Made by a program: the position numbers and the translations under genes | Assembly: GCF_000002075.1 (NCBI RefSeq) | Contig: NW_004797290.1 | Span: forward strand, 1,472,743-1,536,742 | Reading direction: 5' to 3' | Source of the DNA: Aplysia californica | Taxonomy: Eukaryota | Length of the DNA: 64,000 nt | Shown here: positions 32,736 through 59,800 of the stretch, one piece after another | How positions within the stretch are numbered: the stretch's first letter is position 1 | How the letters are laid out: every line of letters begins with the position of its first letter | Notes under the pieces: model-generated | What the model saw: the letters and a program-made list of their open reading frames with translations, nothing else | Told to the model about the DNA's origin: nothing | Databases searched by the model: none

Positions 32736-32894
32736 TTAAATTAGCCCCAATGAGTGCGACACATTCCACAGCAATGTGGCAGGTGTCTTGCTGAGCCAAG
32801 AGGTGATCTGGTCTCCCGTCACACAGGTCTACTGGATCAGGTCACATCAGAAGCCATTAGGGCAGCAATACCTGAAGTCAGAGAAGCATATAGC
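32736..32894 (-). pseudogene. Decayed granulin C-half exon, probably the terminal exon: [50 protein letters not shown]
   Basis: catcag acceptor. Aligns residue for residue with the intact C-half exons but has in-frame TGA (32849-32847), TAG (32831-32829) and a CC-to-CF change. Confidence 0.8.
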
Positions 32895-35800
32895 CTGATG
32901 AGTCACTGAGCAAGGAACAACAAAACATATACTCAACGCTTTACCAGTCACTAGTTCTCATATTGGGAACTTTCTACTTTTTATAAATTGAAACTGGTGA
33001 AGTGGGCACATACTCTACTCAAAAAAGCTGCAAAGCAAGGTAAAAGAAAGTTTAAATCTCTGAAACGAAATCTTTGAGCAAAAAGCTGTGTGACTATTGA
33101 ATATTAAATAGTAGTGAATACTTCTTAGAGACAAATTTCATAACTCTTGTTGGCTCCACTTATCATTCTGTCTAGTAATCATCAACTTCAACTCGTATTT
33201 AACGCAGTGATATAGACCTATAACTTTATGACGGGTTGAGAAAAATTAAATAAAAATCATTTATCGAATTTAAAAAAACATACGCCATTCGAATGGCTTC
33301 AAATAGCTGTGAATAGGGCAACAATCTTGAATGTTGAATAGCAAAATCAAATGGGCACTGCTCTAATACAGACTCCTACACTAGGAAGGAGTCCATCTCA
33401 TTTCAGTTAAAAAACAGGGCAAACAATAATCACGGTTCCGAGATAAAGTGCAAGCTATTGACTTGTATGGCAACAGGTCAAACACAAGCTGCTGGCATTT
33501 ATGAATCATTTGCTACGGAGCAACAGTGTCTGCTTTCCAAGTTTGTATCTCCAGTTTCTGAGACATGTGAGCTGGATTCTAAAACTTCTACATTGTTTGC
33601 TAATGCCATCAATATAGAGCAGAAAAAACTCACAGGAGTTGCAGGTTCCTTGTTGAACCAAGAGAGAACATCTCCACCCCTGATGCATTTTCCATGAGCA
33701 ACATCACACTTGTAGCCGTTGGGGCAGCAGTGAAGATGGTCAGAGCAGCATGTAGCCTGGGCAAAAACATAAAAAAGTCTAACTCAGATTTCTTCATCTT
33801 ATAATTTGTTGCACAGAATAACAAGCACAGACAAATAAGGGTCCTTTTTCTGTTCTCATTCCTCGCCAAAAATGTCCACCCACCATCTGTTCAATTTCTT
33901 GTGCACATAGTGGCTTTCCAGTGTAAAAGAGAATGTTCCCTGTTGATGCAAGCTTTACAGTAAAGCTACAGCTTAATGCCATTGATCTATTTTTGTCAGA
34001 GTCAAGCTGACAATTGAGGAACCATTGTGGGAGCAACAATGTGTGTGTTTCAGCCGTGTTGAACTCTGAGACGGCATTTTCTAACAGCAAGATAAGACCG
34101 GGTTGGACAGCAAAGAGTTAAATCAAAACGCATAAAGAATAAAACAAGTTAACTTTAAAGCGAAAATCCTTTCTAATAATTATAATAAATGACATTTATA
34201 TAGCGCTCAATCCCGAATAAAGTACTCAGGCTCTGAGCGCTTTACAATACCGTACAACATACAACAGTAAAATAAATCGTTGTGTTCTCACTAAAGAAAA
34301 TTATTCCAAATATTCATCTCATTAATTTAAAAACAGAAACGACTTCAGCTGACATTCGAATGAATCAAAAGATGTGATCTCTCTCAAAGTACTTGGTAAA
34401 GCATTCCAGATTTTGGGGCCTTGGTATTGAAAAGCCCTTTCACCCGTTGTTTTAAGTTTCATAGATGGTAAAATAAATTTCTTTTTGTCAGCTGATGACC
34501 TTAAACTACGAGTTGGAATGTACAGTCTTAATAGATTTGATATATATGATAAAAACCATTCTAACATATATATCAACTAGAAAATATATGTCATTGAATT
34601 TTGAACTCACTGATGGCAATGGACAGCAGCCATATTGTCCAGAAGCAAGTTGACAACAGGTGGTTCCATCAGGGCAGTAAGATGTTCCTCCTGGGCACAC
34701 CACATGCTCTACCTCAGGTTTGGGGGCAATCTGAAACATTTCAAATATTCACTTAGTTCTCTTCAGAATAAATTAGAGCCTGACAGATTGCTTAACATGA
34801 CGAATGGTATTCTTCATAAAAAAAGACACAGATCTTTATTTTTCTTATCAAGCTTGATATCTCATTTTAATGTAAACTTCTTTTCACAGAGGGAACAGTA
34901 AGCACACTGACACAATACAGTAGTCTCTGCCTAAGATCCCACCGCTTACGATCCCGGTTCACTAAAGATCCCGCTGTTTTAAGAAAACAGAATTTTTGCT
35001 ATACAAAAGTCACCCCTAAGATCCCGCTCTGATCCACTCTGAAGGTAAACATTTGGCAAAGATCCCGCATTTCTGATCATAATTTATGGAGCAAACACCC
35101 GGGTGGGCACAACCGATCAACCAAGAGTGAAAAGTTGAGATCAATGAACTGGCCGTAGTGTCAAAGATCAGCCTTCGCTCCAGGTGGGATCACATCGTGC
35201 TGTGAACTCTTCCCTGACCAATGCAGCAGTTTTCTCTATTCCTGAGTTTGCGTGACAGACTGAATTTTTATTTTTGTGGTCACAACGTAATGGTGCGTAA
35301 CGACAAAGACAAGGGAACTTGGTCAGAGAAGGAAGGCTATAAATTTTCGACAGGTAAAGAGGAGGGATAAGCGTAGATCTTGAGACTCACGATAGGAAAA
35401 TAAGTGAAAATGGCACGCCTCATGTCACTATGTACTGTGATAGGCCAATTAGTTAACTACTCTTTATTCGCCATATGTCATAAATCCACCCAAGGGGCAC
35501 GTCAGTTCATTTTCGAGCGGAGGGAGAACATTTTACCAATTTGAGCCTTAACATGGGTCACCGTAGATTCTTCCCTGGGTTCATCGGCTAAGGTCCCGCA
35601 TTTTCCTTGCTCCCGAGCACCGGGATCTTAGGCGGAGACTACTGTAATTAATGACCGGAGGAAAACCAAGACAGACAAACAAAACAGAGGTACTGTAAAG
35701 AAGTAGAACCAACCAGTGGTCCTACAACCAAGTATGTGTACTTTTTGGGGGGGTTTTCGGTGTATTTTTTAAATACAACACCCTTCATGAAAAGGAAAAC

Positions 35801-38800
35801 CCAGAAAAAAGAAAAACTTCCACTTCAAAGGCGTGAAAATTTAAGAAACACATCAATGTCATTGTTCTGCCAAAGAAGAAAATCCATAACATCATTCACA
35901 CAAAATTAACTTCCGTTGCAAACAACACATATCATCATAAATGAATTGAAGCAAGAGTAAGTAATATTTTGGTACCTCAGTGGCAGGTTCCTTGTCGAAC
36001 CAAGAGAGAATGTCTCCACCCCTGATGCATTTTCCATGAGCAACATCACACTTGTAGCCGTTGGGGCAGCAGTGAAGATGGTCAGAGCAACATGTAGCCT
36101 GAGCAAAGAATACAGGTTTTCCATGGTTACGATAAAGTGAGAATTTTCAACAGCTTCTGCAGCATATCAGATTTTATGAATCATTAAGAGACGTTGAATA
36201 TCAAATTTTCAACGAGAGGTGTTTTTTGTAAATAGCCTACTATCAAACCAGCTGTAACAGCCACCACTATAAGACAATTACCTGCCACTTCCCATATCCT
36301 CCCTCCTTTTTTTTTTTAAAATCATTAAAATGAAATGTAAGAGACAGCCACCTGTCTAAGATGGCCATTTTTGTCCTTGGCAATGGGTAGCTGTCTTTGA
36401 CAATTTCAACTGTGCAAGTTTACAAAATTTCAGAAACAAGAAAGAAGAGCTATGAAGCCATCAACAGAAGTACGTCAAATACATTAAGAGTAAATTAATG
36501 TGTAAAAATAGGAAGGATAACTGACCATAACATCGACAGCAAAAATTGCTCAGACCAGTCATGTTTTATATCTGTCGCAGCAGTATCTATTTCAGCAAGT
36601 AGTTTATAAATAATATGAAGTGGGACAAAACCTCCATTTAACATTCTCAAATAGAGGTTGATACACAATAATATGACAAACACCGTCCTGTGTGCAAACA
36701 GCGGTACATCAAAACAGTACCAACAATCTTTTACATCTCAGGATTTATGTCTACACTGCTTACTAGGCATCTCACTTCCCATGAAAACATGGCACAGTTG
36801 TCATCCACCTGTTAAATATTTGCCCCATGTACTGACTAATCTTTGAATGTCAGCATCTGTGGTGAAATGGTTAGGCTTTTCATTGTTGCACGTAGAAGAC
36901 GCAAGTTCAATTCCCACGTTGGGAGGTATTTAAAAGTGTTTCTGCCAATCTACAAAGAAGCGTATGCTATTCAGCTCATGTTGGCAATGACATGTAGGGT
37001 CAAAGCAGCCCATCTCCTAAAAGATCCAAATACAACCACTTCCCCCACTGCATTTTTTTCTCTATTTTAATAACACCGTTCAAGATGCCCACCTGTTTAA
37101 GACAACCACTTTTCTCTTTGACAATGGGAGACCATTTTCAACAATTTTGACTATGCACAACACAAGCCAGCCTATCACAGTTCATGTTAAACGTATTTAC
37201 TCAATCAGAAAAAATTACCGATGGTCGAGGACAGCAGCCATATTGTCCAGAAGACAGCTGACAACAGGTGCTTCCATCGGGACAGAAGGAAGATCCTCCT
37301 GGGCACACTACACGGTCTACCTCAGCTTTGGGAGAAATCTGTGCAATGCAACATAAGAACTGATTAAAAGGAAAACGACAGTATCGGAGTATACATACAT
37401 TTTCTCATTTGTTTTTCTTTAGAAAAAGCTACTCTAAACCAAAATGGAAATTTAAAAATATAACCTCTGTTAAAGGAACAGCAAGTTAATACCTTTACAT
37501 TAGAACTCACACAATATAATGTGCTTTGTCTTTCAAAAACAAAGGTCAGGTACCTTGGTACAAATCTTCTTTGATGTAATATGAAAAAAACACACTATTT
37601 ATTTCATTATAAAGAAGCAATAAAATGTGACATGAAGTATAAAGTAAAATATCAGAACCCAGATAAGAATTAAAACTGAATATCTTGTCAACTTATTTAC
37701 AAAGTTGAATTTACTCACTGGAGTGGCCACTTTTTTGGTCATCCATGATAGAATGTCTCCACCCCTGAGGCATTTTCCATGAGCAACATCACACTTGTAG
37801 CCGTTGGGACAGCAGTGAAGATGGTCAGAGCAGCATGTAGCCTGAGGACAATGGTAAAAAAAAATTAAAAACATGCCATGAAATTGGATATAGCATGATG
37901 ATTCATAGGTGTGGAAAAATATTGTAACATTTCGACAGTCCCATCTTCATTGTATAGAGACAACTGATGTGCCAGATTGACGAGTGAAAAGTTTTCAAGT
38001 TTGTGTGTGAGATTAAGTGACATTTCAAACTCACAGTAAAGTACACCTTTACAAGGACATTTGCTTGCTAAGAAAAAAACTGAAGAAAAAAAAACCTCAT
38101 AGCACAAAAAATGGGTGGGTACAAGCTTCACTTGTGCTCCTGGTAGGAGAGGCGACAACTCGTGTTCGGCAAGCCTCAAATGTACCAATTCCTTATTCTC
38201 CAAAACACAGGTGACATTATACACAGTATCATATCAATTTAGATCAGCCATGGCATGGTGACTGTGCATTGGTGTAATATTGTGCATAATGTCGGTAAAT
38301 TCTTTTGTATGAATTTTGTATGTATGAATTAATTTAACTATGTATGTGTGTTTGGAAAGCCAACTATTCCCATTTGGATCATAATCATCACTAAAAGAAA
38401 CCAAAAACAAAATCTGCAGTACGTCAAGAACTACAAGCTCCTATTTGTACTACATGTGTAGCCAGCACCTTATTTTGAGGAAACATAACATACCTGTGGC
38501 AAAGGACAGCAGCCATACTGTCCAGAAGCAAGTTGACAACAGGTGGTTCCATCAGGGCAGTAAGATGTTCCTCCTGGGCACACCACATGCTCTACTTTGG
38601 TCTCAATCTATATAAGGCAGAAAAAGCATTGACAAAGATCTGGATGCTATGCAAAACTGTTAAGGGGTCTGCTGCTGTGCATGTTCTTATCATGACTTCA
38701 AAATCAGTACAAAATCTTTAAAAAGTTTTCCTATGCATAAGCCCTCTACCTATTAAAATGTTGGAACATTTATAAAAATAGAAACATTTTTTTTTCCCAG

Positions 38801-41800
38801 TTAAACACATTTGTGAGGTGTCGTGGTGAAATCAGGCGCTTGTAAAAATAATGAAAGTAAAGAAAACAGCATTTTTCTTACCATTTGGCAACTTTTATCA
38901 AATTGTTATTTTTTTGCTAAGGCTAATCACTTTAACTTTAAAATGTTGATTAAAGGTACAAAAAATATAAATTTACAGTTTACGAGGACTTTCAAGCTTT
39001 AAATGTCACCCAACTTTGGTGGCTATTTTCTTGCTAATTTTACCTCCGAAACCACATGACCCTCAACTTCTTCAATCCAAAATATCTGGACTTTTATTGA
39101 AGATGGATCAGTAATTGTTTTTTCAAAGCAAGACAATAAACAAGCTTTAAGATGATACCATTAAGTCCATATGCCCCAAAGCGCTTGATTTCACCACGTC
39201 CTGACACATGTACATCTAGTATTGATTCTAGCAAATATAGACGATGTGACTGAAACAAAATATGAAATCCAACAACCACAAGTATTTGTAATGGCATAAT
39301 ATTCTGCCAACAACACAGTAAATTATTATGCTACGTAAACAACAAGAATCATTTCTCATTTTTTAAAGCATGCACCCTGTTTCAACAGAATTCACACTTA
39401 TTAACATATACATCAATTATACAAAATGGGACGAACTACTGAGGAATTCCAGTTTTTCACACAATCAAACGGATAGAACTTTTAAAAGTTCAAAAGGCTA
39501 AAGCAATTTCCACTATGTAAACATCTACAGCACTGATTTTATCATTCTTACCTCAGTGGCAGGTTCCTTGTTGAACCAAGAAAGAACATCTCCACCCCTG
39601 AGGCATTTTCCATGAGCAACATCACACTTGTAGCCGTTGGGGCAGCAGTGAAGATGGTCAGAGCAGCATGTAGCCTTAGGATAATGGTGAAAAAACAAAT
39701 TCAAATCATACCATGAAGTTGGATAGTGAACGATGATTCATATAGTGGAAAAAGATTGCAATATTTTAACAGTACCATCATGTAAGGAAAAACTGCTGTG
39801 CAAGCATGATCAATTGAAAGTTTCAAAGTTTGTGTGAAATTTCAATCTATCTCACAGCAAAAAAATACCAATACTTTACAAAGACATTGCTTGCTAGTTA
39901 TTCAGAAAAAAAAAAGCTGATGACAAAATTTCCATAATTTAGCTTCAGATGGACTGACTTCTTATTTTCCCACATCAACTGTACATCATACATAACACCA
40001 TCTAATGTAAACGTGCCATTGTGTATTGACTGGATGGGTAGGTTTGATATTGTAAATTATGCAATATTGGTCTATTCTATTTTGTATAAATTAATTTAAC
40101 TATATATGGTAAGTGAAATATTCCTATAGGGTATCAATGAAACCAACCAAACCAAACTGTCAAGAACTGAAAGCTTCTACTACTATCACGTCAGTGGTCA
40201 ATGTCAGGGGCCAGAACAAGTAGTCAGCTTTATTTTGAGGAAACACAACATACCTGTGGCAAAGGACAGCAGCCATACTGTCCAGAAGCAAGTTGACAAC
40301 AGGTGGTTCCATCAGGGCAGTAAGATGTTCCTCCTGGGCACACCACATGCTCTACTTTGGTCTCAATCTATACATGGCAGAAAAAACCCCCAGTGATGAT
40401 CACTGACACAAATCACGATATGATCCACATACTCTGGGTCTGCATGCTAACCAGAACAGATAAGGAGTCTGCTGCAGTGCATATTCTCACAAAGATCTCA
40501 AAATCTTTTGAAAGGCATCCTATACTTAAAGAGTGTTTTCCAGTGAAAATATTATCTTCAAAACATTTCCTTGCACGTTAGTTGTAATGCAGACTTTTGT
40601 ATCGCTCTTACTGATGTATACAAGACATAAACCTCACACTTGGGTCTAGATGCTAAACAAAAACCATTTAGGGATCTTTCTGCGGTGCACATTTTCTCAC
40701 AAAAACCTCAAAATCAATAGAATCTACAAAATATTTCAGAAATCTTGTCATACTTAAGGCCCTATTCAATAGGAACTGTCAAAGCATTAACAAAAACAGA
40801 AAGATTTTTTTCAAGCAAAACATATTTATGATGTGATTGAAACAAAATACAAAATTTAACAATAGCAAATATTTGTAAAGGCTTGATATTCTCACAATAA
40901 CAAGTAAAATATGTTGCCATATAAACAAAAAGAAAAATTTATCAATTATAAGTAAGCAGTCTGTTTGAAGAGAATTGCACTTATAAACATATTATGTGGT
41001 AATTATATGAATAGGACGCACTACTGAGAAAGCCAAGTTTTTCAAACAACAAAACTGATAGACCTTCTAAAAGTTTAAAAGGTTACAGCAATTTTCACAA
41101 TGAAAAGACCTAGCAGCACTGATTTTGTCATTCTCACCTCAGTGGCAGGTTCCTTGTTGAACCAAGAGAGAACATCTCCACCCCTGAGGCATTTTCCATG
41201 AGCAACATCACACTTGTAGCCGTTGGGGCAGCAGTGAAGATGGTCAGAGCAGCATGTAGCCTTAAAAAAATTAACCAAAAAACCAAATTCCAAATGTGCC
41301 ATAAAGTTGGACACAGCATAATGATTATATAGTGGAAAAAGAACACAACGTTTCAATAGTTCTATCAAGTAAGAAAAACTGCTCTGCAAGCATGATCAGT
41401 TAAAAGCTTAAAAGTTTGTGTGAGACTTCAGTCTATCTCCCAGCCAAGTAATACAAATACTTCACCAGGACATTGCTTGCTAGTAATTCAGGAAAAAGAG
41501 CATAAGACAAAATTCCCATAACACAAAAAGTGGGAGGGTGCAAGCTAAACTTGTGCTCCCTGTATGAGGGACTGCAAGTTCTACATTGGGCATACTTCAG
41601 ATAGACTGACCCCTTATTCTCCAATATCATCGGTACATCATACACAGTAGCATCCAATGTAAATGCGCCATGGTGTATTGACTGTCTGCATAGGTTTGAT
41701 ATTGTACATGATGCAATATTGGTAAATTCTATAATGTACAAATTATTATAATAACCAAGCATATATAATTAGAGAAATATTACCATAGAGATCGATGAAA

Positions 41801-44800
41801 CCAGCCAAAACCAAACTGTACAGTATGGCAAAAACTACAAGCTTCTATTTCTACCACATCAGTGGCCAGGGAAGGTAGACAACATTATTTTGAGGAAACA
41901 CAACATACCTGTGGCAATGGACAGCAGCCATACTGTCCAGAAGCAAGTTGACAACAGGTGGTTCCATCAGGGCAGTAAGATGTTCCTCCTGGGCACACCA
42001 CATGCTCTACTTTGGTCTCAATCTATACAAGGAAGAAAAAAAAACCCAATCATGATCACAGATACAAAAACATTATATGACCCACATACTTAGGATCTGG
42101 ATGCTATGCAAAACTGTTAAGGGGTCTGCTGCTGTGCATGTTCTTATCATGACTTCAAAATCAGTACAAAATCTTTAAAAAGTTTTCCTATGCATAAGCC
42201 CTCTACCTATTAAAATGTTGGAACATTTATAAAAATAGAAACATTTTTTTTTTCCAGTTAAACACATTTGTGAGGTGTCGTGGTGAAATCAGGCGCTTGT
42301 AAAAATAATGAAAGTAAAGAAAACAGCATTTTTCTTACCATTTGGCAACTTTTATCAAATTGTTATTTTTTTGCTAAGGCTAATCACTTTAACTTTAAAA
42401 TGTTGATTAAAGGTACAAAAAATATAAATTTACAGTTTACGAGGACTTTCAAGCTTTAAATGTCACCCAACTTTGGTGGCTATTTTCTTGCTAATTTTAC
42501 CTCCGAAACCACATGACCCTCAACTTCTTCAATCCAAAATATCTGGACTTTTATTGAAGATGGATCAGTAATTGTTTTTTCAAAGCAAGACAATAAACAA
42601 GCTTTAAGATGATACCATTAAGTCCATATGCCCCAAAGCGCTTGATTTCACCACGTCCTGACACATGTACATCTAGTATTGATTCTAGCAAATATAGACG
42701 ATGTGACTGAAACAAAATATGAAATCCAACAACCACAAGTATTTGTAATGGCATAATATTCTGCCAACAACACAGTAAATTATTATGCTACGTAAACAAC
42801 AAGAATCATTTCTCATTTTTTAAAGCATGCACCCTGTTTCAACAGAATTCACACTTATTAACATATACATCAATTATACAAAATGGGACGAACTACTGAG
42901 GAATTCCAGTTTTTCACACAATCAAACGGATAGAACTTTTAAAAGTTCAAAAGGCTAAAGCAATTTCCACTATGTAAACATCTACAGCACTGATTTTATC
43001 ATTCTTACCTCAGTGGCAGGTTCCTTGTTGAACCAAGAAAGAACATCTCCACCCCTGAGGCATTTTCCATGAGCAACATCACACTTGTAGCCGTTGGGGC
43101 AGCAGTGAAGATGGTCAGAGCAGCATGTAGCCTTAAAAAAATTAACCAAAAAACCAAATTCCAAATGTGCCATAAAGTTGGACACAGCATAATGATTATA
43201 TAGTGGAAAAAGAACACAACGTTTCAATAGTTCTATCAAGTAAGAAAAACTGCTCTGCAAGCATGATCAGTTAAAAGCTTAAAAGTTTGTGTGAGACTTC
43301 AGTCTATCTCCCAGCCAAGTAATACAAATACTTCACCAGGACATTGCTTGCTAGTAATTCAGGAAAAAGAGCATAAGACAAAATTCCCATAACACAAAAA
43401 GTGGGAGGGTGCAAGCTAAACTTGTGCTCCCTGTATGAGGGACTGCAAGTTCTACATTGGGCATACTTCAGATAGACTGACCCCTTATTCTCCAATATCA
43501 TCGGTACATCATACACAGTAGCATCCAATGTAAATGCGCCATGGTGTATTGACTGTCTGCATAGGTTTGATATTGTACATGATGCAATATTGGTAAATTC
43601 TATAATGTACAAATTATTATAATAACCAAGCATATATAATTAGAGAAATATTACCATAGAGATCGATGAAACCAGCCAAAACCAAACTGTACAGTATGGC
43701 AAAAACTACAAGCTTCTATTTCTACCACATCAGTGGCCAGGGAAGGTAGACAACATTATTTTGAGGAAACACAACATACCTGTGGCAATGGACAGCAGCC
43801 ATACTGTCCAGAAGCAAGTTGACAACAGGTGGTTCCATCAGGGCAGTAAGATGTTCCTCCTGGGCACACCACATGCTCTACTTTGGTCTCAATCTATACA
43901 AGGAAGAAAAAAAAACCCAATCATGATCACAGATACAAAAACATTATATGACCCACATACTTAGGATCTGGATGCTATGCAAAACTGTTAAGGGGTCTGC
44001 TGCTGTGCATGTTCTTATCATGACTTCAAAATCAGTACAAAATCTTTAAAAAGTTTTCCTATGCATAAGCCCTCTACCTATTAAAATGTTGGAACATTTA
44101 TAAAAATAGAAACATTTTTTTTTTCCAGTTAAACACATTTGTGAGGTGTCGTGGTGAAATCAGGCGCTTGTAAAAATAATGAAAGTAAAGAAAACAGCAT
44201 TTTTCTTACCATTTGGCAACTTTTATCAAATTGTTATTTTTTTGCTAAGGCTAATCACTTTAACTTTAAAATGTTGATTAAAGGTACAAAAAATATAAAT
44301 TTACAGTTTACGAGGACTTTCAAGCTTTAAATGTCACCCAACTTTGGTGGCTATTTTCTTGCTAATTTTACCTCCGAAACCACATGACCCTCAACTTCTT
44401 CAATCCAAAATATCTGGACTTTTATTGAAGATGGATCAGTAATTGTTTTTTCAAAGCAAGACAATAAACAAGCTTTAAGATGATACCATTAAGTCCATAT
44501 GCCCCAAAGCGCTTGATTTCACCACGTCCTGACACATGTACATCTAGTATTGATTCTAGCAAATATAGACGATGTGACTGAAACAAAATATGAAATCCAA
44601 CAACCACAAGTATTTGTAATGGCATAATATTCTGCCAACAACACAGTAAATTATTATGCTACGTAAACAACAAGAATCATTTCTCATTTTTTAAAGCAAG
44701 CACCCTGTTTCAACAGAATTCACACTTATTAACATATACATCAATTATACAAAATGGGACGAACTACTGAGGAATTCCAGTTTTTCACACAATCAAACGG

Positions 44801-47800
44801 ATAGAACTTTTAAAAGTTCAAAAGGCTAAAGCAATTTCCACTATGTAAACATCTACAGCACTGATTTTATCATTCTTACCTCAGTGGCAGGTTCCTTGTT
44901 GAACCAAGAAAGAACATCTCCACCCCTGAGGCATTTTCCATGAGCAACATCACACTTGTAGCCGTTGGGGCAGCAGTGAAGATGGTCAGAGCAGCATGTA
45001 GCCTTAGGATAATGGTGAAAAAACAAATTCAAATCATACCATGAAGTTGGATAATGAACGATGATTCATATAGTGGAAAAAGATTGCAATATTTTAACAG
45101 TACCATCATGTAAGGAAAAACTGCTGTGCAAGCATGATCAATTGAAAGTTTCAAAGTTTGTGTGAAATTTCAATCTATCTCACAGCAAAAAAATACCAAT
45201 ACTTTACAAAGACATTGCTTGCTAGTTATTCAGAAAAAAAAAAGCTGATGACAAAATTTCCATAATTTAGCTTCAGATGGACTGACTTCTTATTTTCCCA
45301 CATCAACTGTACATCATACATAACACCATCTAATGTAAACGTGCCATTGTGTATTGACTGGATGGGTAGGTTTGATATTGTAAATTATGCAATATTGGTC
45401 TATTCTATTTTGTATAAATTAATTTAACTATATATGGTAAGTGAAATATTCCTATAGGGTATCAATGAAACCAACCAAACCAAACTGTCAAGAACTGAAA
45501 GCTTCTACTACTATCACGTCAGTGGTCAATGTCAGGGGCCAGAACAAGTAGTCAGCTTTATTTTGAGGAAACACAACATACCTGTGGCAAAGGACAGCAG
45601 CCATACTGTCCAGAAGCAAGTTGACAACAGGTGGTTCCATCAGGGCAGTAAGATGTTCCTCCTGGGCACACCACATGCTCTACTTTGGTCTCAATCTATA
45701 CATGGCAGAAAAAACCCCCAGTGATGATCACTGACACAAATCACGATATGATCCACATACTCTGGGTCTGCATGCTAACCAGAACAGATAAGGAGTCTGC
45801 TGCAGTGCATATTCTCACAAAGATCTCAAAATCTTTTGAAAGGCATCCTATACTTAAAGAGTGTTTTCCAGTGAAAATATTATCTTCAAAACATTTCCTT
45901 GCACGTTAGTTGTAATGCAGACTTTTGTATCGCTCTTACTGATGTATACAAGACATAAACCTCACACTTGGGTCTAGATGCTAAACAAAAACCATTTAGG
46001 GATCTTTCTGCGGTGCACATTTTCTCACAAAAACCTCAAAATCAATAGAATCTACAAAATATTTCAGAAATCTTGTCATACTTAAGGCCCTATTCAATAG
46101 GAACTGTCAAAGCATTAACAAAAACAGAAAGATTTTTTTCAAGCAAAACATATTTATGATGTGATTGAAACAAAATACAAAATTTAACAATAGCAAATAT
46201 TTGTAAAGGCTTGATATTCTCACAATAACAAGTAAAATATGTTGCCATATAAACAAAAAGAAAAATTTATCAATTATAAGTAAGCAGTCTGTTTGAAGAG
46301 AATTGCACTTATAAACATATTATGTGGTAATTATATGAATAGGACGCACTACTGAGAAAGCCAAGTTTTTCAAACAACAAAACTGATAGACCTTCTAAAA
46401 GTTTAAAAGGTTACAGCAATTTTCACAATGAAAAGACCTAGCAGCACTGATTTTGTCATTCTCACCTCAGTGGCAGGTTCCTTGTTGAACCAAGAGAGAA
46501 CATCTCCACCCCTGAGGCATTTTCCATGAGCAACATCACACTTGTAGCCGTTGGGGCAGCAGTGAAGATGGTCAGAGCAGCATGTAGCCTTAAAAAAATT
46601 AACCAAAAAACCAAATTCCAAATGTGCCATAAAGTTGGACACAGCATAATGATTATATAGTGGAAAAAGAACACAACGTTTCAATAGTTCTATCAAGTAA
46701 GAAAAACTGCTCTGCAAGCATGATCAGTTAAAAGCTTAAAAGTTTGTGTGAGACTTCAGTCTATCTCCCAGCCAAGTAATACAAATACTTCACCAGGACA
46801 TTGCTTGCTAGTAATTCAGGAAAAAGAGCATAAGACAAAATTCCCATAACACAAAAAGTGGGAGGGTGCAAGCTAAACTTGTGCTCCCTGTATGAGGGAC
46901 TGCAAGTTCTACATTGGGCATACTTCAGATAGACTGACCCCTTATTCTCCAATATCATCGGTACATCATACACAGTAGCATCCAATGTAAATGCGCCATG
47001 GTGTATTGACTGTCTGCATAGGTTTGATATTGTACATGATGCAATATTGGTAAATTCTATAATGTACAAATTATTATAATAACCAAGCATATATAATTAG
47101 AGAAATATTACCATAGAGATCGATGAAACCAGCCAAAACCAAACTGTACAGTATGGCAAAAACTACAAGCTTCTATTTCTACCACATCAGTGGCCAGGGA
47201 AGGTAGACAACATTATTTTGAGGAAACACAACATACCTGTGGCAATGGACAGCAGCCATACTGTCCAGAAGCAAGTTGACAACAGGTGGTTCCATCAGGG
47301 CAGTAAGATGTTCCTCCTGGGCACACCACATGCTCTACTTTGGTCTCAATCTATACAAGGAAGAAAAAAAAACCCAATCATGATCACAGATACAAAAACA
47401 TTATATGACCCACATACTTAGGATCTGGATGCTATGCAAAACTGTTAAGGGGTCTGCTGCTGTGCATGTTCTTATCATGACTTCAAAATCAGTACAAAAT
47501 CTTTAAAAAGTTTTCCTATGCATAAGCCCTCTACCTATTAAAATGTTGGAACATTTATAAAAATAGAAACATTTTTTTTTTCCAGTTAAACACATTTGTG
47601 AGGTGTCGTGGTGAAATCAGGCGCTTGTAAAAATAATGAAAGTAAAGAAAACAGCATTTTTCTTACCATTTGGCAACTTTTATCAAATTGTTATTTTTTT
47701 GCTAAGGCTAATCACTTTAACTTTAAAATGTTGATTAAAGGTACAAAAAATATAAATTTACAGTTTACGAGGACTTTCAAGCTTTAAATGTCACCCAACT

Positions 47801-50800
47801 TTGGTGGCTATTTTCTTGCTAATTTTACCTCCGAAACCACATGACCCTCAACTTCTTCAATCCAAAATATCTGGACTTTTATTGAAGATGGATCAGTAAT
47901 TGTTTTTTCAAAGCAAGACAATAAACAAGCTTTAAGATGATACCATTAAGTCCATATGCCCCAAAGCGCTTGATTTCACCACGTCCTGACACATGTACAT
48001 CTAGTATTGATTCTAGCAAATATAGACGATGTGACTGAAACAAAATATGAAATCCAACAACCACAAGTATTTGTAATGGCATAATATTCTGCCAACAACA
48101 CAGTAAATTATTATGCTACGTAAACAACAAGAATCATTTCTCATTTTTTAAAGCATGCACCCTGTTTCAACAGAATTCACACTTATTAACATATACATCA
48201 ATTATACAAAATGGGACGAACTACTGAGGAATTCCAGTTTTTCACACAATCAAACGGATAGAACTTTTAAAAGTTCAAAAGGCTAAAGCAATTTCCACTA
48301 TGTAAACATCTACAGCACTGATTTTATCATTCTTACCTCAGTGGCAGGTTCCTTGTTGAACCAAGAAAGAACATCTCCACCCCTGAGGCATTTTCCATGA
48401 GCAACATCACACTTGTAGCCGTTGGGGCAGCAGTGAAGATGGTCAGAGCAGCATGTAGCCTTAAAAAAATTAACCAAAAAACCAAATTCCAAATGTGCCA
48501 TAAAGTTGGACACAGCATAATGATTATATAGTGGAAAAAGAACACAACGTTTCAATAGTTCTATCAAGTAAGAAAAACTGCTCTGCAAGCATGATCAGTT
48601 AAAAGCTTAAAAGTTTGTGTGAGACTTCAGTCTATCTCCCAGCCAAGTAATACAAATACTTCACCAGGACATTGCTTGCTAGTAATTCAGGAAAAAGAGC
48701 ATAAGACAAAATTCCCATAACACAAAAAGTGGGAGGGTGCAAGCTAAACTTGTGCTCCCTGTATGAGGGACTGCAAGTTCTACATTGGGCATACTTCAGA
48801 TAGACTGACCCCTTATTCTCCAATATCATCGGTACATCATACACAGTAGCATCCAATGTAAATGCGCCATGGTGTATTGACTGTCTGCATAGGTTTGATA
48901 TTGTACATGATGCAATATTGGTAAATTCTATAATGTACAAATTATTATAATAACCAAGCATATATAATTAGAGAAATATTACCATAGAGATCGATGAAAC
49001 CAGCCAAAACCAAACTGTACAGTATGGCAAAAACTACAAGCTTCTATTTCTACCACATCAGTGGCCAGGGAAGGTAGACAACATTATTTTGAGGAAACAC
49101 AACATACCTGTGGCAATGGACAGCAGCCATACTGTCCAGAAGCAAGTTGACAACAGGTGGTTCCATCAGGGCAGTAAGATGTTCCTCCTGGGCACACCAC
49201 ATGCTCTACTTTGGTCTCAATCTATACAAGGAAGAAAAAAAAACCCAATCATGATCACAGATACAAAAACATTATATGACCCACATACTTAGGATCTGGA
49301 TGCTATGCAAAACTGTTAAGGGGTCTGCTGCTGTGCATGTTCTTATCATGACTTCAAAATCAGTACAAAATCTTTAAAAAGTTTTCCTATGCATAAGCCC
49401 TCTACCTATTAAAATGTTGGAACATTTATAAAAATAGAAACATTTTTTTTTTCCAGTTAAACACATTTGTGAGGTGTCGTGGTGAAATCAGGCGCTTGTA
49501 AAAATAATGAAAGTAAAGAAAACAGCATTTTTCTTACCATTTGGCAACTTTTATCAAATTGTTATTTTTTTGCTAAGGCTAATCACTTTAACTTTAAAAT
49601 GTTGATTAAAGGTACAAAAAATATAAATTTACAGTTTACGAGGACTTTCAAGCTTTAAATGTCACCCAACTTTGGTGGCTATTTTCTTGCTAATTTTACC
49701 TCCGAAACCACATGACCCTCAACTTCTTCAATCCAAAATATCTGGACTTTTATTGAAGATGGATCAGTAATTGTTTTTTCAAAGCAAGACAATAAACAAG
49801 CTTTAAGATGATACCATTAAGTCCATATGCCCCAAAGCGCTTGATTTCACCACGTCCTGACACATGTACATCTAGTATTGATTCTAGCAAATATAGACGA
49901 TGTGACTGAAACAAAATATGAAATCCAACAACCACAAGTATTTGTAATGGCATAATATTCTGCCAACAACACAGTAAATTATTATGCTACGTAAACAACA
50001 AGAATCATTTCTCATTTTTTAAAGCATGCACCCTGTTTCAACAGAATTCACACTTATTAACATATACATCAATTATACAAAATGGGACGAACTACTGAGG
50101 AATTCCAGTTTTTCACACAATCAAACGGATAGAACTTTTAAAAGTTCAAAAGGCTAAAGCAATTTCCACTATGTAAACATCTACAGCACTGATTTTATCA
50201 TTCTTACCTCAGTGGCAGGTTCCTTGTTGAACCAAGAAAGAACATCTCCACCCCTGAGGCATTTTCCATGAGCAACATCACACTTGTAGCCGTTGGGGCA
50301 GCAGTGAAGATGGTCAGAGCAGCATGTAGCCTTAGGATAATGGTGAAAAAACAAATTCAAATCATACCATGAAGTTGGATAATGAACGATGATTCATATA
50401 GTGGAAAAAGATTGCAATATTTTAACAGTACCATCATGTAAGGAAAAACTGCTGTGCAAGCATGATCAATTGAAAGTTTCAAAGTTTGTGTGAAATTTCA
50501 ATCTATCTCACAGCAAAAAAATACCAATACTTTACAAAGACATTGCTTGCTAGTTATTCAGAAAAAAAAAAGCTGATGACAAAATTTCCATAATTTAGCT
50601 TCAGATGGACTGACTTCTTATTTTCCCACATCAACTGTACATCATACATAACACCATCTAATGTAAACGTGCCATTGTGTATTGACTGGATGGGTAGGTT
50701 TGATATTGTAAATTATGCAATATTGGTCTATTCTATTTTGTATAAATTAATTTAACTATATATGGTAAGTGAAATATTCCTATAGGGTATCAATGAAACC

Positions 50801-53800
50801 AACCAAACCAAACTGTCAAGAACTGAAAGCTTCTACTACTATCACGTCAGTGGTCAATGTCAGGGGCCAGAACAAGTAGTCAGCTTTATTTTGAGGAAAC
50901 ACAACATACCTGTGGCAAAGGACAGCAGCCATACAGTCCAGAAGCAAGTTGACAACAGGTGGTTCCATCAGGGCAGTAAGATGTTCCTCCTGGGCACACC
51001 ACATGCTCTACTTTGGTCTCAATCTATACAAGGAAGAAAAAAAAACCCAATCATGATCACAGATACAAAAACATTATATGACCCACATACTTAGGATCTG
51101 GATGCTATGCAAAACTGTTAAGGGGTCTGCTGCTGTGCATGTTCTTATCATGACTTCAAAATCAGTACAAAATCTTTAAAAAGTTTTCCTATGCATAAGC
51201 CCTCTACCTATTAAAATGTTGGAACATTTATAAAAATAGAAACATTTTTTTTTTCCAGTTAAACACATTTGTGAGGTGTCGTGGTGAAATCAGGCGCTTG
51301 TAAAAATAATGAAAGTAAAGAAAACAGCATTTTTCTTACCATTTGGCAACTTTTATCAAATTGTTATTTTTTTGCTAAGGCTAATCACTTTAACTTTAAA
51401 ATGTTGATTAAAGGTACAAAAAATATAAATTTACAGTTTACGAGGACTTTCAAGCTTTAAATGTCACCCAACTTTGGTGGCTATTTTCTTGCTAATTTTA
51501 CCTCCGAAACCACATGACCCTCAACTTCTTCAATCCAAAATATCTGGACTTTTATTGAAGATGGATCAGTAATTGTTTTTTCAAAGCAAGACAATAAACA
51601 AGCTTTAAGATGATACCATTAAGTCCATATGCCCCAAAGCGCTTGATTTCACCACGTCCTGACACATGTACATCTAGTATTGATTCTAGCAAATATAGAC
51701 GATGTGACTGAAACAAAATATGAAATCCAACAACCACAAGTATTTGTAATGGCATAATATTCTGCCAACAACACAGTAAATTATTATGCTACGTAAACAA
51801 CAAGAATCATTTCTCATTTTTTAAAGCATGCACCCTGTTTCAACAGAATTCACACTTATTAACATATACATCAATTATACAAAATGGGACGAACTACTGA
51901 GGAATTCCAGTTTTTCACACAATCAAACGGATAGAACTTTTAAAAGTTCAAAAGGCTAAAGCAATTTCCACTATGTAAACATCTACAGCACTGATTTTAT
52001 CATTCTTACCTCAGTGGCAGGTTCCTTGTTGAACCAAGAAAGAACATCTCCACCCCTGAGGCATTTTCCATGAGCAACATCACACTTGTAGCCGTTGGGG
52101 CAGCAGTGAAGATGGTCAGAGCAGCATGTAGCCTTAGGATAATGGTGAAAAAACAAATTCAAATCATACCATGAAGTTGGATAATGAACGATGATTCATA
52201 TAGTGGAAAAAGATTGCAATATTTTAACAGTACCATCATGTAAGGAAAAACTGCTGTGCAAGCATGATCAATTGAAAGTTTCAAAGTTTGTGTGAAATTT
52301 CAATCTATCTCACAGCAAAAAAATACCAATACTTTACAAAGACATTGCTTGCTAGTTATTCAGAAAAAAAAAAAGCTGATGACAAAATTTCCATAATTTA
52401 GCTTCAGATGGACTGACTTCTTATTTTCCCACATCAACTGTACATCATACATAACACCATCTAATGTAAACGTGCCATTGTGTATTGACTGGATGGGTAG
52501 GTTTGATATTGTAAATTATGCAATATTGGTCTATTCTATTTTGTATAAATTAATTTAACTATATATGGTAAGTGAAATATTCCTATAGGGTATCAATGAA
52601 ACCAACCAAACCAAACTGTCAAGAACTGAAAGCTTCTACTACTATCACGTCAGTGGTCAATGTCAGGGGCCAGAACAAGTAGTCAGCTTTATTTTGAGGA
52701 AACACAACATACCTGTGGCAAAGGACAGCAGCCATACAGTCCAGAAGCAAGTTGACAACAGGTGGTTCCATCAGGGCAGTAAGATGTTCCTCCTGGGCAC
52801 ACCACATGCTCTACTTTGGTCTCAATCTATACATGGCAGAAAAAACCCCCAGTGATGATCACTGACACAAATCACGATATGATCCACATACTCTGGGTCT
52901 GCATGCTAACCAGAACAGATAAGGAGTCTGCTGCAGTGCATATTCTCACAAAGATCTCAAAATCTTTTGAAAGGCATCCTATACTTAAGAGTGTTTTCCA
53001 GTGAAAATATTATCTTCAAAACATTTCCTTGCACGTTAGTTGTAATGCAGACTTTTGTATCGCTCTTACTGATGTATACAAGACATAAACCTCACACTTG
53101 GGTCTAGATGCTAAACAAAAACCATTTAGGGATCTTTCTGCGGTGCACATTTTCTCACAAAAACCTCAAAATCAATAGAATCTACAAAATATTTCAGAAA
53201 TCTTGTCATACTTAAGGCCCTATTCAATAGGAACTGTCAAAGCATTAACAAAAACAGAAAGATTTTTTTCAAGCAAAACATATTTATGATGTGATTGAAA
53301 CAAAATACAAAATTTAACAATAGCAAATATTTGTAAAGGCTTGATATTCTCACAATAACAAGTAAAATATGTTGCCATATAAACAAAAAGAAAAATTTAT
53401 CAATTATAAGTAAGCAGTCTGTTTGAAGAGAATTGCACTTATAAACATATTATGTGGTAATTATATGAATAGGACGCACTACTGAGAAAGCCAAGTTTTT
53501 CAAACAACAAAACTGATAGACCTTCTAAAAGTTTAAAAGGTTACAGCAATTTTCACAATGAAAAGACCTAGCAGCACTGATTTTGTCATTCTCACCTCAG
53601 TGGCAGGTTCCTTGTTGAACCAAGAGAGAACATCTCCACCCCTGAGGCATTTTCCATGAGCAACATCACACTTGTAGCCGTTGGGGCAGCAGTGAAGATG
53701 GTCAGAGCAGCATGTAGCCTTAAAAAAATTAACCAAAAAACCAAATTCCAAATGTGCCATAAAGTTGGACACAGCATAATGATTATATAGTGGAAAAAGA

Positions 53801-56800
53801 ACACAACGTTTCAATAGTTCTATCAAGTAAGAAAAACTGCTCTGCAAGCATGATCAGTTAAAAGCTTAAAAGTTTGTGTGAGACTTCAGTCTATCTCCCA
53901 GCCAAGTAATACAAATACTTCACCAGGACATTGCTTGCTAGTAATTCAGGAAAAAGAGCATAAGACAAAATTCCCATAACACAAAAAGTGGGAGGGTGCA
54001 AGCTAAACTTGTGCTCCCTGTATGAGGGACTGCAAGTTCTACATTGGGCATACTTCAGATAGACTGACCCCTTATTCTCCAATATCATCGGTACATCATA
54101 CACAGTAGCATCCAATGTAAATGCGCCATGGTGTATTGACTGTCTGCATAGGTTTGATATTGTACATGATGCAATATTGGTAAATTCTATAATGTACAAA
54201 TTATTATAATAACCAAGCATATATAATTAGAGAAATATTACCATAGAGATCGATGAAACCAGCCAAAACCAAACTGTACAGTATGGCAAAAACTACAAGC
54301 TTCTATTTCTACCACATCAGTGGCCAGGGAAGGTAGACAACATTATTTTGAGGAAACACAACATACCTGTGGCAATGGACAGCAGCCATACTGTCCAGAA
54401 GCAAGTTGACAACAGGTGGTTCCATCAGGGCAGTAAGATGTTCCTCCTGGGCACACCACATGCTCTACTTTGGTCTCAATCTATACAAGGAAGAAAAAAA
54501 AACCCAATCATGATCACAGATACAAAAACATTATATGACCCACATACTTAGGATCTGGATGCTATGCAAAACTGTTAAGGGGTCTGCTGCTGTGCATGTT
54601 CTTATCATGACTTCAAAATCAGTACAAAATCTTTAAAAAGTTTTCCTATGCATAAGCCCTCTACCTATTAAAATGTTGGAACATTTATAAAAATAGAAAC
54701 ATTTTTTTTTTCCAGTTAAACACATTTGTGAGGTGTCGTGGTGAAATCAGGCGCTTGTAAAAATAATGAAAGTAAAGAAAACAGCATTTTTCTTACCATT
54801 TGGCAACTTTTATCAAATTGTTATTTTTTTGCTAAGGCTAATCACTTTAACTTTAAAATGTTGATTAAAGGTACAAAAAATATAAATTTACAGTTTACGA
54901 GGACTTTCAAGCTTTAAATGTCACCCAACTTTGGTGGCTATTTTCTTGCTAATTTTACCTCCGAAACCACATGACCCTCAACTTCTTCAATCCAAAATAT
55001 CTGGACTTTTATTGAAGATGGATCAGTAATTGTTTTTTCAAAGCAAGACAATAAACAAGCTTTAAGATGATACCATTAAGTCCATATGCCCCAAAGCGCT
55101 TGATTTCACCACGTCCTGACACATGTACATCTAGTATTGATTCTAGCAAATATAGACGATGTGACTGAAACAAAATATGAAATCCAACAACCACAAGTAT
55201 TTGTAATGGCATAATATTCTGCCAACAACACAGTAAATTATTATGCTACGTAAACAACAAGAATCATTTCTCATTTTTTAAAGCAAGCACCCTGTTTCAA
55301 CAGAATTCACACTTATTAACATATACATCAATTATACAAAATGGGACGAACTACTGAGGAATTCCAGTTTTTCACACAATCAAACGGATAGAACTTTTAA
55401 AAGTTCAAAAGGCTAAAGCAATTTCCACTATGTAAACATCTACAGCACTGATTTTATCATTCTTACCTCAGTGGCAGGTTCCTTGTTGAACCAAGAAAGA
55501 ACATCTCCACCCCTGAGGCATTTTCCATGAGCAACATCACACTTGTAGCCGTTGGGGCAGCAGTGAAGATGGTCAGAGCAGCATGTAGCCTTAAAAAAAA
55601 TTAAAAACATGCCATAAAGTTGGATATTGAACGATGATGATTCATATGGTGAGATTTCAACATTCCCATTTTAATAACACGTAAAGACAAACTTTTTTTA
55701 AAAAATCATTAAAATGTTCTAAGTTTGTGCGAGATTTTGTAGTAGAGGTTTTATGGCGCTCGAAACTGCATACGGTCATATGAGCGCCAGAAGATTAGAG
55801 GTGTTACAAGAGAGTAACAAACAGAAAAGAAGGAGGGGAGATAAGTACGATAGATGTTTGATAGGAAAGAAGAAGCAAACCACACCAGAGCACCCACCAA
55901 TCACCCGCAAGTAACACTTATAACTTATTAGGTCACCTGCTTTCTAGTCACAAAGGAAAAAGTGAACACACAAAAAAACAACTCTCATAGCAGAAAAAGT
56001 GGGTGGCTACAAGCTACACTTGAGCTCATTATACTAGTCATTGCGACTTCTGCATTGGGCATTCACCTAAAATGTACCTCATACACAATATCAAACCAAT
56101 AAAGACGAACCATGGCATGTTGACAATCTATCTGTGCTGGTGTGATATTGTGCGGAGCACAGATAGTCAACTTTACTTTGAGGAAACATAGCATACCTGT
56201 GGCAATGGACAGCAGCCNNNNNNNNNNNNNNNNNNNNNNNNNNNNNNNNNNNNNNNNNNNNNNNNNNNNNNNNNNNNNNNNNNNNNNNNNNNNNNNNNNN
56301 NNNNNNNNNNNNNNNNNNNNNNNNNNNNNNNNNNNNNNNNNNNNNNNNNNNNNNNNNNNNNNNNNNNNNNNNNNNNNNNNNNNNNNNNNNNNNNNNNNNN
56401 NNNNNNNNNNNNNNNNNNNNACTTGATCTAAAGTTTGTGTGAGATGTTTCAGTCTATATCAAAAAGAGAAGACAAAAAAAAAGAACAAACAACACAGCAG
56501 AAAAAGTGTTTAGGTGCAAGCTAAACTTGTGCTCCCTGTATGAGGGACTGCAAGTTCTACTTGGGCATACTTCAGATAGACTGACCCCTTATTCTCCAAT
56601 ATCATCGGTACATCATACACAGTAGCATCTCAATGTAAATGCGCCATGGTGTGTTGACAATATCTACAATGGTGTCATATTTTGTACAGCGTTGGTTAAT
56701 TATTTTACGGATGAATTTATTTAACAACGTATGTATGGTAAGCCAACTATTCCATAAGGATCGATGAAACCAGCCAAAACCAAACTGTACAGTATGGCAA

Positions 56801-59800
56801 AAACTACAAGCTTCTATTTCTACCACATCAGTGGCCAGCACAGATAGTCAACTTTACTTTGAGGAAACATAGCATACCTGTGGCAATGGACAGCAGCCAT
56901 ACTGTCCAGAAGCAAGTTGACAACAGGTGGTTCCATCAGGGCAGTAAGATGTTCCTCCTGGGCACACCACATGCTCTACTTTGGTCTCCATCTATACATG
57001 GCAGAAAAAAACGGTGATGATCACTGATACAAATAGATTAAGTGACCCATGTACTCGGGGTCTAGATGCTAAAAAAAACCTGAAGGAGGCTGTTGCAGTG
57101 TATTTTTTTTACCAAAAACTCAAAACTTATACCAAATCTTTTGAAAGTCTTCCCAAACTTAAGGCCCTTTTCCAGTGTAAATATTATTCTTAAAATTTTC
57201 TCTTGTACATTATTTTGTCTTGTTTGGGTTAAGAGAAGCACACCAACAAAACACAAAAAGGAAATAACAGAGGCAAAGAAAAGAAGAAGGACCTAACAGT
57301 TGCGCCCTCTAACCATCCGTTCGTACATTAGTAGTTGTTGTTAGCGATCCAGGTACATTAGTAGTAATGTAGACTTTTGTATCAGTTTTACAATATAAAC
57401 CAAACGTAGCATTTTATTTTGTTTATTTCTAAGCTAGTGGCCCTGAAACTAAGGGGAAGCACTGCCATCTTGGATTTTCTCAGGAACTTAAGGGTTTCAA
57501 TTTTCTGAAATCTTTCATGATCGATAATGTGTCATTTTTTAACAGCGTGTTCTATTGGTGTTGTAGCACAGTAACAGACCCATTTTATAGAGTGTTTGGA
57601 TGGAAAAATGTTGGCAGTAAGATAACATTTTTTTAAAAGAATAAGAAAAGACAAACACATCTGCCTCAATCAGCCTTTATAAAAGTAAAATAACAGCAAA
57701 TTCTCCCAAAAGCTTTGCAACTTAATAAAGGAATTCTCACAAGGCATCATACAAACTTTGAAGAAAACACGACCAACCTAGTAGGAAATAAACATAATTT
57801 TGCTTTACATTTGTTGAGACTATGTAAAAACATTTATAACAACAGAAACATTTTTGTCCAGCTTAACAATTTTAGGCAGAATAATAGATTCTCCCGCACA
57901 AATATTCGTAATGGCTGGTATTCTCACTTAAAATACAGCAGTATATTCTACTACATAAAACAAAAAGTATAATTTCTTTTTTTCAAGTAAGCACTCTCTG
58001 TTTTAACAGAATCTGCACTTGTATAGGTTGTTCACTTTCGTCTGTCCATGTTTAAAAAATTCACACTCGTTTATTAATTTGCCAACACGCATGAAACTAT
58101 GCTTGGCATACCTGTAGGCCAGCAATAAACAAAAATATTTTTTCTGAGAATTCTTGTTCCAGTAATAAAAATTGTTTTTTGGGGGGGCTCTATGTTAAAT
58201 GTTGTACTTTAGATGCATACGAGTACACAGGAAAACAACAATAAATGGTGTACAGTAACTAAACTACAAACTGCTCATTTTGAGACATCGACACCACCCT
58301 GCCCCCACATTTCAGTGTAAGCTTATAGATTTCCTCTCAAGACAGTCTAGACATCTCCAAGTGAGTCTTGATAAGTACCCATCCGGTTTTTGGATCGTGT
58401 ATTATAGAGGCATGCCATGTCAAAATGTGGAGTTGACGAAGATGTTGATGTTTTAGGTGTATGCTGTAGATCCCCTGTTAGTTGGTTTTTTTTTTACCCA
58501 TTATAGACTAACATCAAAGGAAACATGTCAGAATTTTAGTTTGCAGTAACTTTCATTAATGGGCTTTTAGTTTAGATTCTGTCGGTCATCCAACTTTGGA
58601 GCACAGCACACATGCAAAGACCAGGGGCGATAAGACAGAGCAATTTATTTTTATTTTGTTTTAACCATGGTCAGATGAAAGTGAACAAGCTATAAGAAAA
58701 GCACCAATTGCTCAAAATGGAAATCACTGCTTAGGAATTCAACTTTTTAACAAAACCAAACTGACACACTTATCAAAAGGTTAAATCAAAATTTGCGATG
58801 TAGAGATCTTGCAGCATCATCCTCACCTCAGTGGCAGGCTCCTTCTTGAATAAAGACAGAACATCTCCACCCCTGGTGCAGGTACCAGCAGAAACATCAC
58901 ACTTGTAGCCGTTGGGGCAGCAGTGAAGATGGTCAGAGCAGCATGTAGCCTTAGGACAATGGTGAAATGGTGAAAAAACAAAATTCAAAACATGCCATCA
59001 AGTTGGATATAGAAGAATGATTCATATGGCGGACAAAATAGTGCGACATTTGACCTATTCCCATCTTCATAATGTCAGGACAAAGGTTTTTTTGTGTTTT
59101 TTTTTTGGGGGGGGGGGGGGTGGGGAGGGAGGGAGGTTGAGTAAAGAGAAGCACATTGACACAATGATGGTCATTTTAAGCTGAGAAAAAGTAGGACAGA
59201 CAGACATAATAAATGGAAAGCAAAGAAGTAAGACATATCTGTGGCACCCGCCAAGCACCCAATATATAAGGACTAACTGAATGCAAACTTGATCTAAAGT
59301 TCATGTGACATGTTTCAGTCTATATCAAAAACAGAAGACAAAAAAAAAGAACAAACAACACAGCAGAAAAAGTGTTTAGGTAAAAGCTTCACTCCTGCTC
59401 ACTGTAAGAAGGAATGCAATTCCTGCTTGGGTATACATCAAACATACCGACTCCTTTTTCTCCAAAACCAACATTTCATCATACGCATTGACATATCAAG
59501 GCAGACAAGCCATTGTGTGTTGACCATATCTACAATGGTGTCATATTTTGTACAGCGTTGGTTAATTATTTTACGGATGAATTTATTTAACAACGTATGT
59601 ATGGTAAGCCAACTATTCCATAAGGATCTATAAAACCAGCTAAAACCAAACTATGCAATTTGTCAAGACCTACAAACTTCTATTACCTCTACATCAGTGA
59701 CCAGGACAGGTAGTCAACCTTATTTTGAGGAAACACAACATACCTGTGGCAATGGACAGCAGCCATACTGTCCAGAAGCAAGTTGACAACAGGTGGTTCC

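What the first reader, a model, noticed from the sequence alone, without database searches (positions are those of the whole stretch)
38608..55589. Mosaic array grammar PXQY-PY-PXQY-PY-PX-PXQY-P points to crossovers inside the identical exons
Seen: introns within a module come as X (579/580 bp) or Y (648 bp), and introns between modules as P (986 bp; first copy 944) or Q (769/770 bp). Unit sums reproduce the observed periods exactly: PXQY = 3457, PY = 1871, PX = 1802, PXQY+PY = 5328. Exons B6 and B9 (P-B-Y) carry the P-linked silent allele but are followed by intron Y. Exon A10 (X-A-P) carries the X-linked silent allele but is followed by intron P. Inference: an ancestral two-module unit is being recut by unequal exchange within the ~120-bp exons, adding or removing single modules in frame.
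Basis: partly seen in the sequence, partly recalled or inferred. Interest (0 to 1): 0.75.

Follow-up and report, generated by a model that had tools for sequence, protein, structure and literature searches.

The report
Sea-hare progranulin two-module repeat array
This is the progranulin gene of a sea hare, where ten near-identical protein modules sit in a real tandem repeat with two alternating sets of introns; the exons are likely kept identical by recombination, but the shuffled order printed in this assembly is probably at least partly an assembly error.

Summary
The locus is progranulin on the minus strand; exon B translates 100% identical to an Aplysia californica protein. Its near-identical split-exon modules are already in print (PMC4527844).

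Supported: a two-module PXQY unit, and exchange limited to exons. The two module types differ at 2 silent sites where 10-12 are expected from 19% intron divergence. Dimer arrays broken by hybrid modules also appear in oyster and nemertean progranulin models.

Not supported: the printed order. Contig depth in 4 of 4 runs fits a near-regular array better than the window (Q/P 0.69-0.99, window 0.43). The fit is about 5 dimers and 0-1 single modules, against 3 and 3 printed. All three odd junctions switch within 95-96 identical bases, which contigs cannot phase. An apparent assembly chimera lies beside the array at an N gap.

Verdict: a real, ordinary concerted-evolution array whose mosaic order is unverified. 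Two look-ups found no earlier scan note on this.

The parts
33634..59857 (-). Progranulin gene, part in window: 14 N-half (A) and 14 C-half (B) granulin exons; 5' exons not found in the window
38494..55589 (-). Near-identical core: 10 A exons and 10 B exons separated by introns of classes P, X, Q, Y
38608..39551 (-). First P intron (944 bp); own first ~30 bp, otherwise one substitution from canonical P
39552..39674 (-). Exon B, P-linked type (column 31 = A on +, silent Leu codon); Pfam Granulin positions 18-42
39675..40253 (-). Intron X (within module); other copies 45003, 50331, 52133
40254..40367 (-). Exon A, X-linked type (column 10 = A on +, silent Pro codon); Pfam Granulin positions 1-17
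40368..41137 (-). Intron Q (between modules); other copies 45696, 52827; under-counted in the window relative to read depth
41261..41908 (-). Intron Y (within module); other copies 43132, 46589, 48460, 53719
42023..43008 (-). Canonical intron P (986 bp); other copies 43894, 47351, 49222, 51024, 54481
43040..43135 (.). Switch window of the first P-B-Y junction: 96 bp identical between the two module types
   Evidence: B columns 32-127
48368..48463 (.). Switch window of the second P-B-Y junction (96 bp)
50936..51030 (.). Switch window of the X-A-P junction (95 bp, bounded by the Gln>Leu variant at A column 26 shared by A50910 and A52713)
56156..56898 (.). Suspect assembly join: 62-bp duplicate (56156-56217 = 56837-56898) around a 203-N gap and a chimeric intron piece (56421-56836)

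Best explanation
The region is the repeat core of a progranulin gene, a real tandem array with a two-module unit (P-B-X-A-Q-B-Y-A, 3457 bp) present in likely about five copies per chromosome, whose exons are likely homogenised between the two module types by short exchanges inside the exons, while the exact order printed here is probably in part an assembly path through identical exons. Shown: the anatomy, multi-copy status in reads, exon identity against 19-22% intron divergence, phase-0 introns. Inferred, tier 1: in-register unequal exchange or conversion over whole dimers keeps each intron class above 99.6% identical and spread a repeat element through all P copies. Inferred, tier 2: out-of-register pairing finds perfect homology only in the ~100-bp exon windows, mostly resolved as conversion (which erases silent differences) and occasionally as crossover (which adds or removes one module in frame). 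At most about one such single-module unit per chromosome is likely real, not the three printed.
For: Silent differences between module types: 2 observed against 10.2-11.7 expected (Poisson P 0.002-0.0007), and edge exons A56878 and B55467 have 0 silent differences although their shared intron is 33% diverged from X and Y. Contigs of the DNA runs break inside the exons where identity predicts, so exon identity is in the reads. Depth in X2 relative to 4 single-copy contigs: P 7.1, X 5.1, Q 4.9, Y 5.5; in X8 relative to 1 contig: 6.1, 5.8, 5.1, 6.0; all 4 of 4 runs lie closer to 6:5:5:5 than to 7:4:3:5. Fit: 4.8-5.5 dimers and 0.1-1.2 singles, against 3 and 3 printed. All three odd junctions omit Q, the class most under-counted. 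Chimeric intron at the gap: 39 of 39 substitution sites Y-like, 0 of 2 indels. Three rare alleles of the window are the contig letters in X8, X13 and X11, so variants turn over within the species.
Against: The tool warns that contig depth is no copy number; X13 is shallow and noisy, X8 has one single-copy contig, and X11 looks like RNA. The error model (5% or 12% per contig) is my assumption, and with 12% three singles are not excluded for X2 (P=0.11). A diploid mean cannot exclude one haplotype as printed and a longer regular one. It is not known that X2 is the assembled animal. 15 of 18 junctions are regular, so the assembler had phase information most of the time, and P in X2 (7.1) matches the printed 7. 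Windows of ~100 bp are short for homologous crossover (recalled).
Confidence: 0.62

Rival explanations
1. The printed order is a true haplotype: one crossover in exon B made PY, the 5328-bp PXQY-PY block was then duplicated, and one crossover in exon A duplicated PX.
For: Two crossovers and one duplication suffice. The Gln>Leu allele sits on both sides of the PX unit as a duplication predicts. The window's rare alleles are real polymorphisms. Hybrid modules in dimer arrays occur in oyster (P0026 module 10, switch inside the C-half) and Tubulanus (5 of 6 isoforms) models, and B. glabrata records have 14, 12 and 13 modules.
Against: Q depth implies about 5 copies, not 3, in X2 and X8, so the second haplotype would need about 7. 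An assembly loop would also duplicate the Leu allele. The two 5328-bp blocks differ at X column 52. There is a suspect join 0.6 kb from the array end. The best-holding runs date from 2011-2013.
Confidence: 0.2
2. The array is strictly (PXQY)n-P, all three odd junctions are artefacts, and exon identity is kept by selection, silent sites included, with no exchange inside exons.
For: The X8 fit gives 0.1 singles. The gene is highly expressed in X11 (exon contig depth 1286-1709 against 8.6-19 in introns), so some silent-site constraint is conceivable.
Against: The terminal modules have drifted at 4-21 non-silent and up to 8 silent positions, so sequence is not frozen. Identity runs 24 bp into the X/Y donor side. 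Selection does not readily explain near-total silent identity.
Confidence: 0.13
3. The whole 17-kb array is an assembly loop over a locus with only two or three modules.
For: Near-zero differences between copies, N gaps nearby, and a second near-identical array at 9515-14693.
Against: Intron classes lie at about 5-7 times single-copy depth in X2 and X8 and 4-6 times in X13. 87 of 131 homologues surveyed also have three or more near-identical modules (biased set).
Confidence: 0.03

Closest known systems
Aplysia californica progranulin (Palfree, Bennett, Bateman 2015, PMC4527844)
   Same: Same gene: 11 of 13 modules identical, encoded by split exons; near-identical module repeats are called recurrent across animals and their origin 'unclear' (sections 15 and 21, read in full).
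   Different: The parts I read describe protein modules and exon types, not the intron classes, the two-module unit or the silent-site deficit; 'gene conversion' and 'concerted' occur 0 times in its main text.
Human LPA KIV-2 copy-number array (PMC4378929, passages read)
   Same: Intragenic array with two exons per domain; types A/B/C differ by 2-3 synonymous exon changes; variants are thought to spread among copies by gene conversion; copy number varies.
   Different: The passages show no regular alternation of types. Copy-number variation is established there and only suggested here.
Schistosoma SmPoMuc exon-2 genomic repeats (PMC2576457, passages read)
   Same: Exon-plus-intron tandem units under concerted evolution; intermingled repeat types shown by type-specific PCR; the authors note that such repeats defeat assembly.
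   Different: There introns are homogenised and exons differ (the paper says the same of spider silk genes). Here introns are homogenised within a class but 20% apart between classes, while exons are homogenised across classes.
Dimer-repeat progranulins of Crassostrea angulata (P0026), Tubulanus polymorphus (P0142), Patella vulgata (P0065)
   Same: Alternating a-b modules interrupted by a hybrid or extra single module.
   Different: There the two types differ in protein, here only in introns and two silent bases. Their DNA, exon borders and assembly method were not examined.

Membership tests
Progranulin | Tandem 12-cysteine granulin modules (PF00396) | tested here: met
   A matches profile positions 1-17 (22.7 bits) and B 18-42 (37.8 bits), cut-off 20.9; 6+6 Cys in translations
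Progranulin | Modules split into N-half and C-half exons in compatible phase | tested here: met
   114 and 123 bp exons, phase 0, GT-AG; as in PMC4527844
Progranulin | N-terminal signal peptide | not tested
   The N-terminus of P0018 has no separate match in the window; it looks like a signal peptide by eye in P0001
Progranulin | Expressed and spliced | tested here: inconclusive
   X11 exon contigs are about 100-fold deeper than intron contigs, but the run is not on record as RNA and no A-B splice joint is among the joints shown
Intragenic exon-intron array under concerted evolution | Copies, introns included, far more alike within the array than to flanking paralogues | tested here: met
   At most 2 variable columns per class against 19-33% between classes and to flanks; single multi-copy contigs in reads
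Intragenic exon-intron array under concerted evolution | Variants spread through copies within the species | tested here: inconclusive
   Contig letters differ between runs at 39371, 39726, 40528, 40746 and 41103, but contigs drop minor alleles, so the share of copies is unknown
Intragenic exon-intron array under concerted evolution | Copy-number variation between individuals | tested here: inconclusive
   4.8-5.0 against 5.5 dimers in X2 and X8, within error
   Only contigs were served, and they break inside both exons
   4 of 4 runs are closer to 6:5:5:5; rough depth measure, animals may differ from the assembled one

The most novel reading that the evidence does not exclude
Diverged introns confine out-of-register recombination to ~100-bp exon windows, so the exons act as in-frame cut points: sea hares would segregate progranulin alleles differing by single granulin modules, each marked by a hybrid intron junction. 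The four intron classes would then be a built-in barcode for measuring conversion and crossover in the process behind near-identical granulin repeats, whose origin PMC4527844 calls unclear.
Probability: 0.4. Interest if true: 0.45.

Novelty: new member of a known kind. Interest (0 to 1): 0.3.

Why it matters
Near-identical granulin repeats arise again and again in animals and their origin is stated to be unclear (PMC4527844, section 21). This locus makes the question testable: the two module types encode the same protein but carry distinguishable introns, so a long-read or junction-PCR survey would count exchange events directly. It is also a caution: the six RefSeq models retrieved carry the same two Gln>Leu modules as the window, so their module number may rest on an array that read depth suggests is 1-2 modules short and misordered. 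The mechanism is textbook and the protein product barely changes, so interest is modest.

Tried and rejected
No whole genome was held, so no genome-wide check was possible. No RNA holder was listed on record. Junction phasing from contigs failed because they end inside the exons. The Gln>Leu allele gave no row in the reads, which proves nothing since contigs drop rare variants. Several single-copy flank bins had no cover in X8 and X11; not used as evidence. RefSeq isoforms were rejected as independent support because all six carry the window's two Leu modules. The Fisher table used rough counts and is superseded. My first reading put the A alleles at the wrong columns; fixes them at 10 and 26. 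The 'HOR-like' and 'hybrid' flags are too loose to count, so only proteins read by eye are cited. A search for a long-read Aplysia assembly listed none among the top 15 of 48 papers (listing only). The scan's notes gave nothing by place and eight unrelated micro-exon arrays by words. No structure or complex prediction was run, as the fold is not in question.

Full report
Observation. Self-comparison shows a family of near-identical segments from about 38.5 to 55.6 kb. Six-frame translation gives granulin half-modules on the minus strand. There are 14 A exons (N-half) and 14 B exons (C-half plus linker) between 33634 and 59857. The ten central pairs are 114 and 123 bp, phase 0, with GT..AG introns. 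B6, B9 and A10 carry the alleles stated.

Identity. Both exons pass the Pfam Granulin cut-off. Exon B is 100% identical to P0001, a RefSeq protein of Aplysia californica. All six isoforms in that cluster carry two Gln>Leu modules, like the window, so they are not independent of this sequence. Palfree et al. 2015 (PMC4527844; I saw the abstract, passages, sections 15 and 21, and supplement file 10; supplement file 4 was unreadable) already report that 11 of 13 Aplysia modules are identical and encoded by split exons, and call the origin of such repeats unclear.

The array is real. I laid four runs from four studies on 35000-42110, one copy of each intron class plus flank; all were contigs. X, Q and Y each gave one long contig in X2, X8 and X11 (partial in X13), and P gave two or three pieces around a dispersed repeat. 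Relative to single-copy contigs, X2 gives P 7.1, X 5.1, Q 4.9, Y 5.5 (4 reference contigs) and X8 gives 6.1, 5.8, 5.1, 6.0 (1 reference contig). The contigs stop inside the exons, about 30 bases short of the points where the module types diverge, so exon identity is in the reads. Three of the window's rare alleles (P column 806, X column 52, Q column 161) are the contig letters in X8, X13 and X11, so they are real polymorphisms.

Exchange inside exons is supported. X versus Y and the alignable part of P versus Q differ at 19% of sites. The exons of the two module types hold about 52 silent sites and differ at 2, where 10.2-11.7 are expected (P 0.002-0.0007). Edge exons A56878 and B55467 have no silent difference from the core type used as reference although the intron between them is 33% diverged from X and Y. 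The longest exact match between X and Y is the 24 bp next to exon A, and P and Q have none of 20 bp. Long perfect homology between neighbouring modules therefore exists only in and beside the exons. I infer repeated conversion there; a crossover in the same window would add or remove one module in frame. Relatives show products of that kind at protein level: oyster P0026 alternates two modules and module 10 switches type inside the C-half; Tubulanus module 7 is a hybrid in 5 of 6 isoforms; three Biomphalaria glabrata records have 14, 12 and 13 modules. These are gene models whose DNA I did not see. Near-identical repeats are common: 87 of 131 proteins with five or more parsed modules have three or more near-identical ones. 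That set comes from the best 120 of 728 hits plus earlier hits, includes isoforms, and is biased towards repeats.

The printed order is not supported. The silent alleles lie near the P/Q side of B and the X/Y side of A, so they only place each switch in an identical window: 96 bp in B, and 95 bp in A10 (111 bp without the Leu allele). A crossover and an assembly path would both switch there. Three things favour assembly. First, Q/P is 0.69, 0.83, 0.99 and 0.71 in the four runs, against 0.43 printed and 0.83 for five regular dimers; 4 of 4 runs fit the regular model better. A fit under assumed noise gives 4.8-5.5 dimers and 0.1-1.2 single modules, against 3 and 3. Second, all three odd junctions omit Q and no reciprocal junction is present. 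Third, 0.6 kb beyond the array a 62-bp duplicate flanks a 203-N gap, and 56421-56877 is an ungapped 457-bp copy of intron 59287-59743 in which 54 of 66 differences are Y letters. In its longest tract 39 of 39 substitution sites follow Y but both 1-bp indels do not (P=0.001). That pattern suits base-level overwriting by high-copy reads better than gene conversion; this is inferred, as no reads were laid there.

Results against that reading: contig depth is, by the tool's own warning, no copy number. With 12% noise three singles are not excluded for X2 (P=0.11). A diploid mean allows one haplotype as printed. P depth in X2 equals the printed 7 and leaves room for about one real single module. 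15 of 18 junctions are regular, so the assembler was mostly guided by data. I put the printed order at about 0.2, and real single-module hybrids segregating in the species at about 0.4.

Comparison. The array works like LPA KIV-2 (PMC4378929, passages) and the SmPoMuc repeats (PMC2576457, passages): exon-intron units under concerted evolution. It differs from SmPoMuc in that exons, not introns, are homogenised between types. I found no paper describing the intron classes or the dimer unit of this gene in five searches of the open library (listings only apart from the three papers named); subscription journals are not covered.

Verdict. A known gene and a known class of mechanism, with an apparently undescribed intron-level anatomy and an unverified mosaic order. 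New member of a known kind; interest 0.3.

Noticed in passing
window 9515-14693: Second near-identical tandem array, about 3.8 copies of 1365 bp at 99.2%, with a TG microsatellite and a 50-bp internal repeat; copies 3 and 4 are identical over the first 1080 bp. No reads were laid, so it may be real or an assembly loop.
   Followed up: partly
window 32769-32897 (-): Decayed granulin C-half exon with two stop codons downstream of the last coding exon; a loose end of an X11 contig off exon B carries its letters, so it may be part of the 3' UTR.
   Followed up: partly
window about 38810-39180 and the same place in every P intron: Dispersed high-copy element present in all 7 P copies and without counterpart in Q; another copy at 1947-2184 (76%). 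It likely entered once, before the dimer was amplified.
   Followed up: partly
window 56156-56898: Probable false insertion at the N gap: collapsing the 62-bp duplicate gives a 607-bp intron, similar in size to X and Y.
   Followed up: yes
proteins P0001, P0018, P0021: RefSeq names these progranulin models 'fibrillin-3', and many invertebrate progranulins carry EGF- or Notch-like names; Pfam shows granulin.
   Followed up: no
window 18421-18607: Four perfect copies of a 47-bp unit.
   Followed up: no
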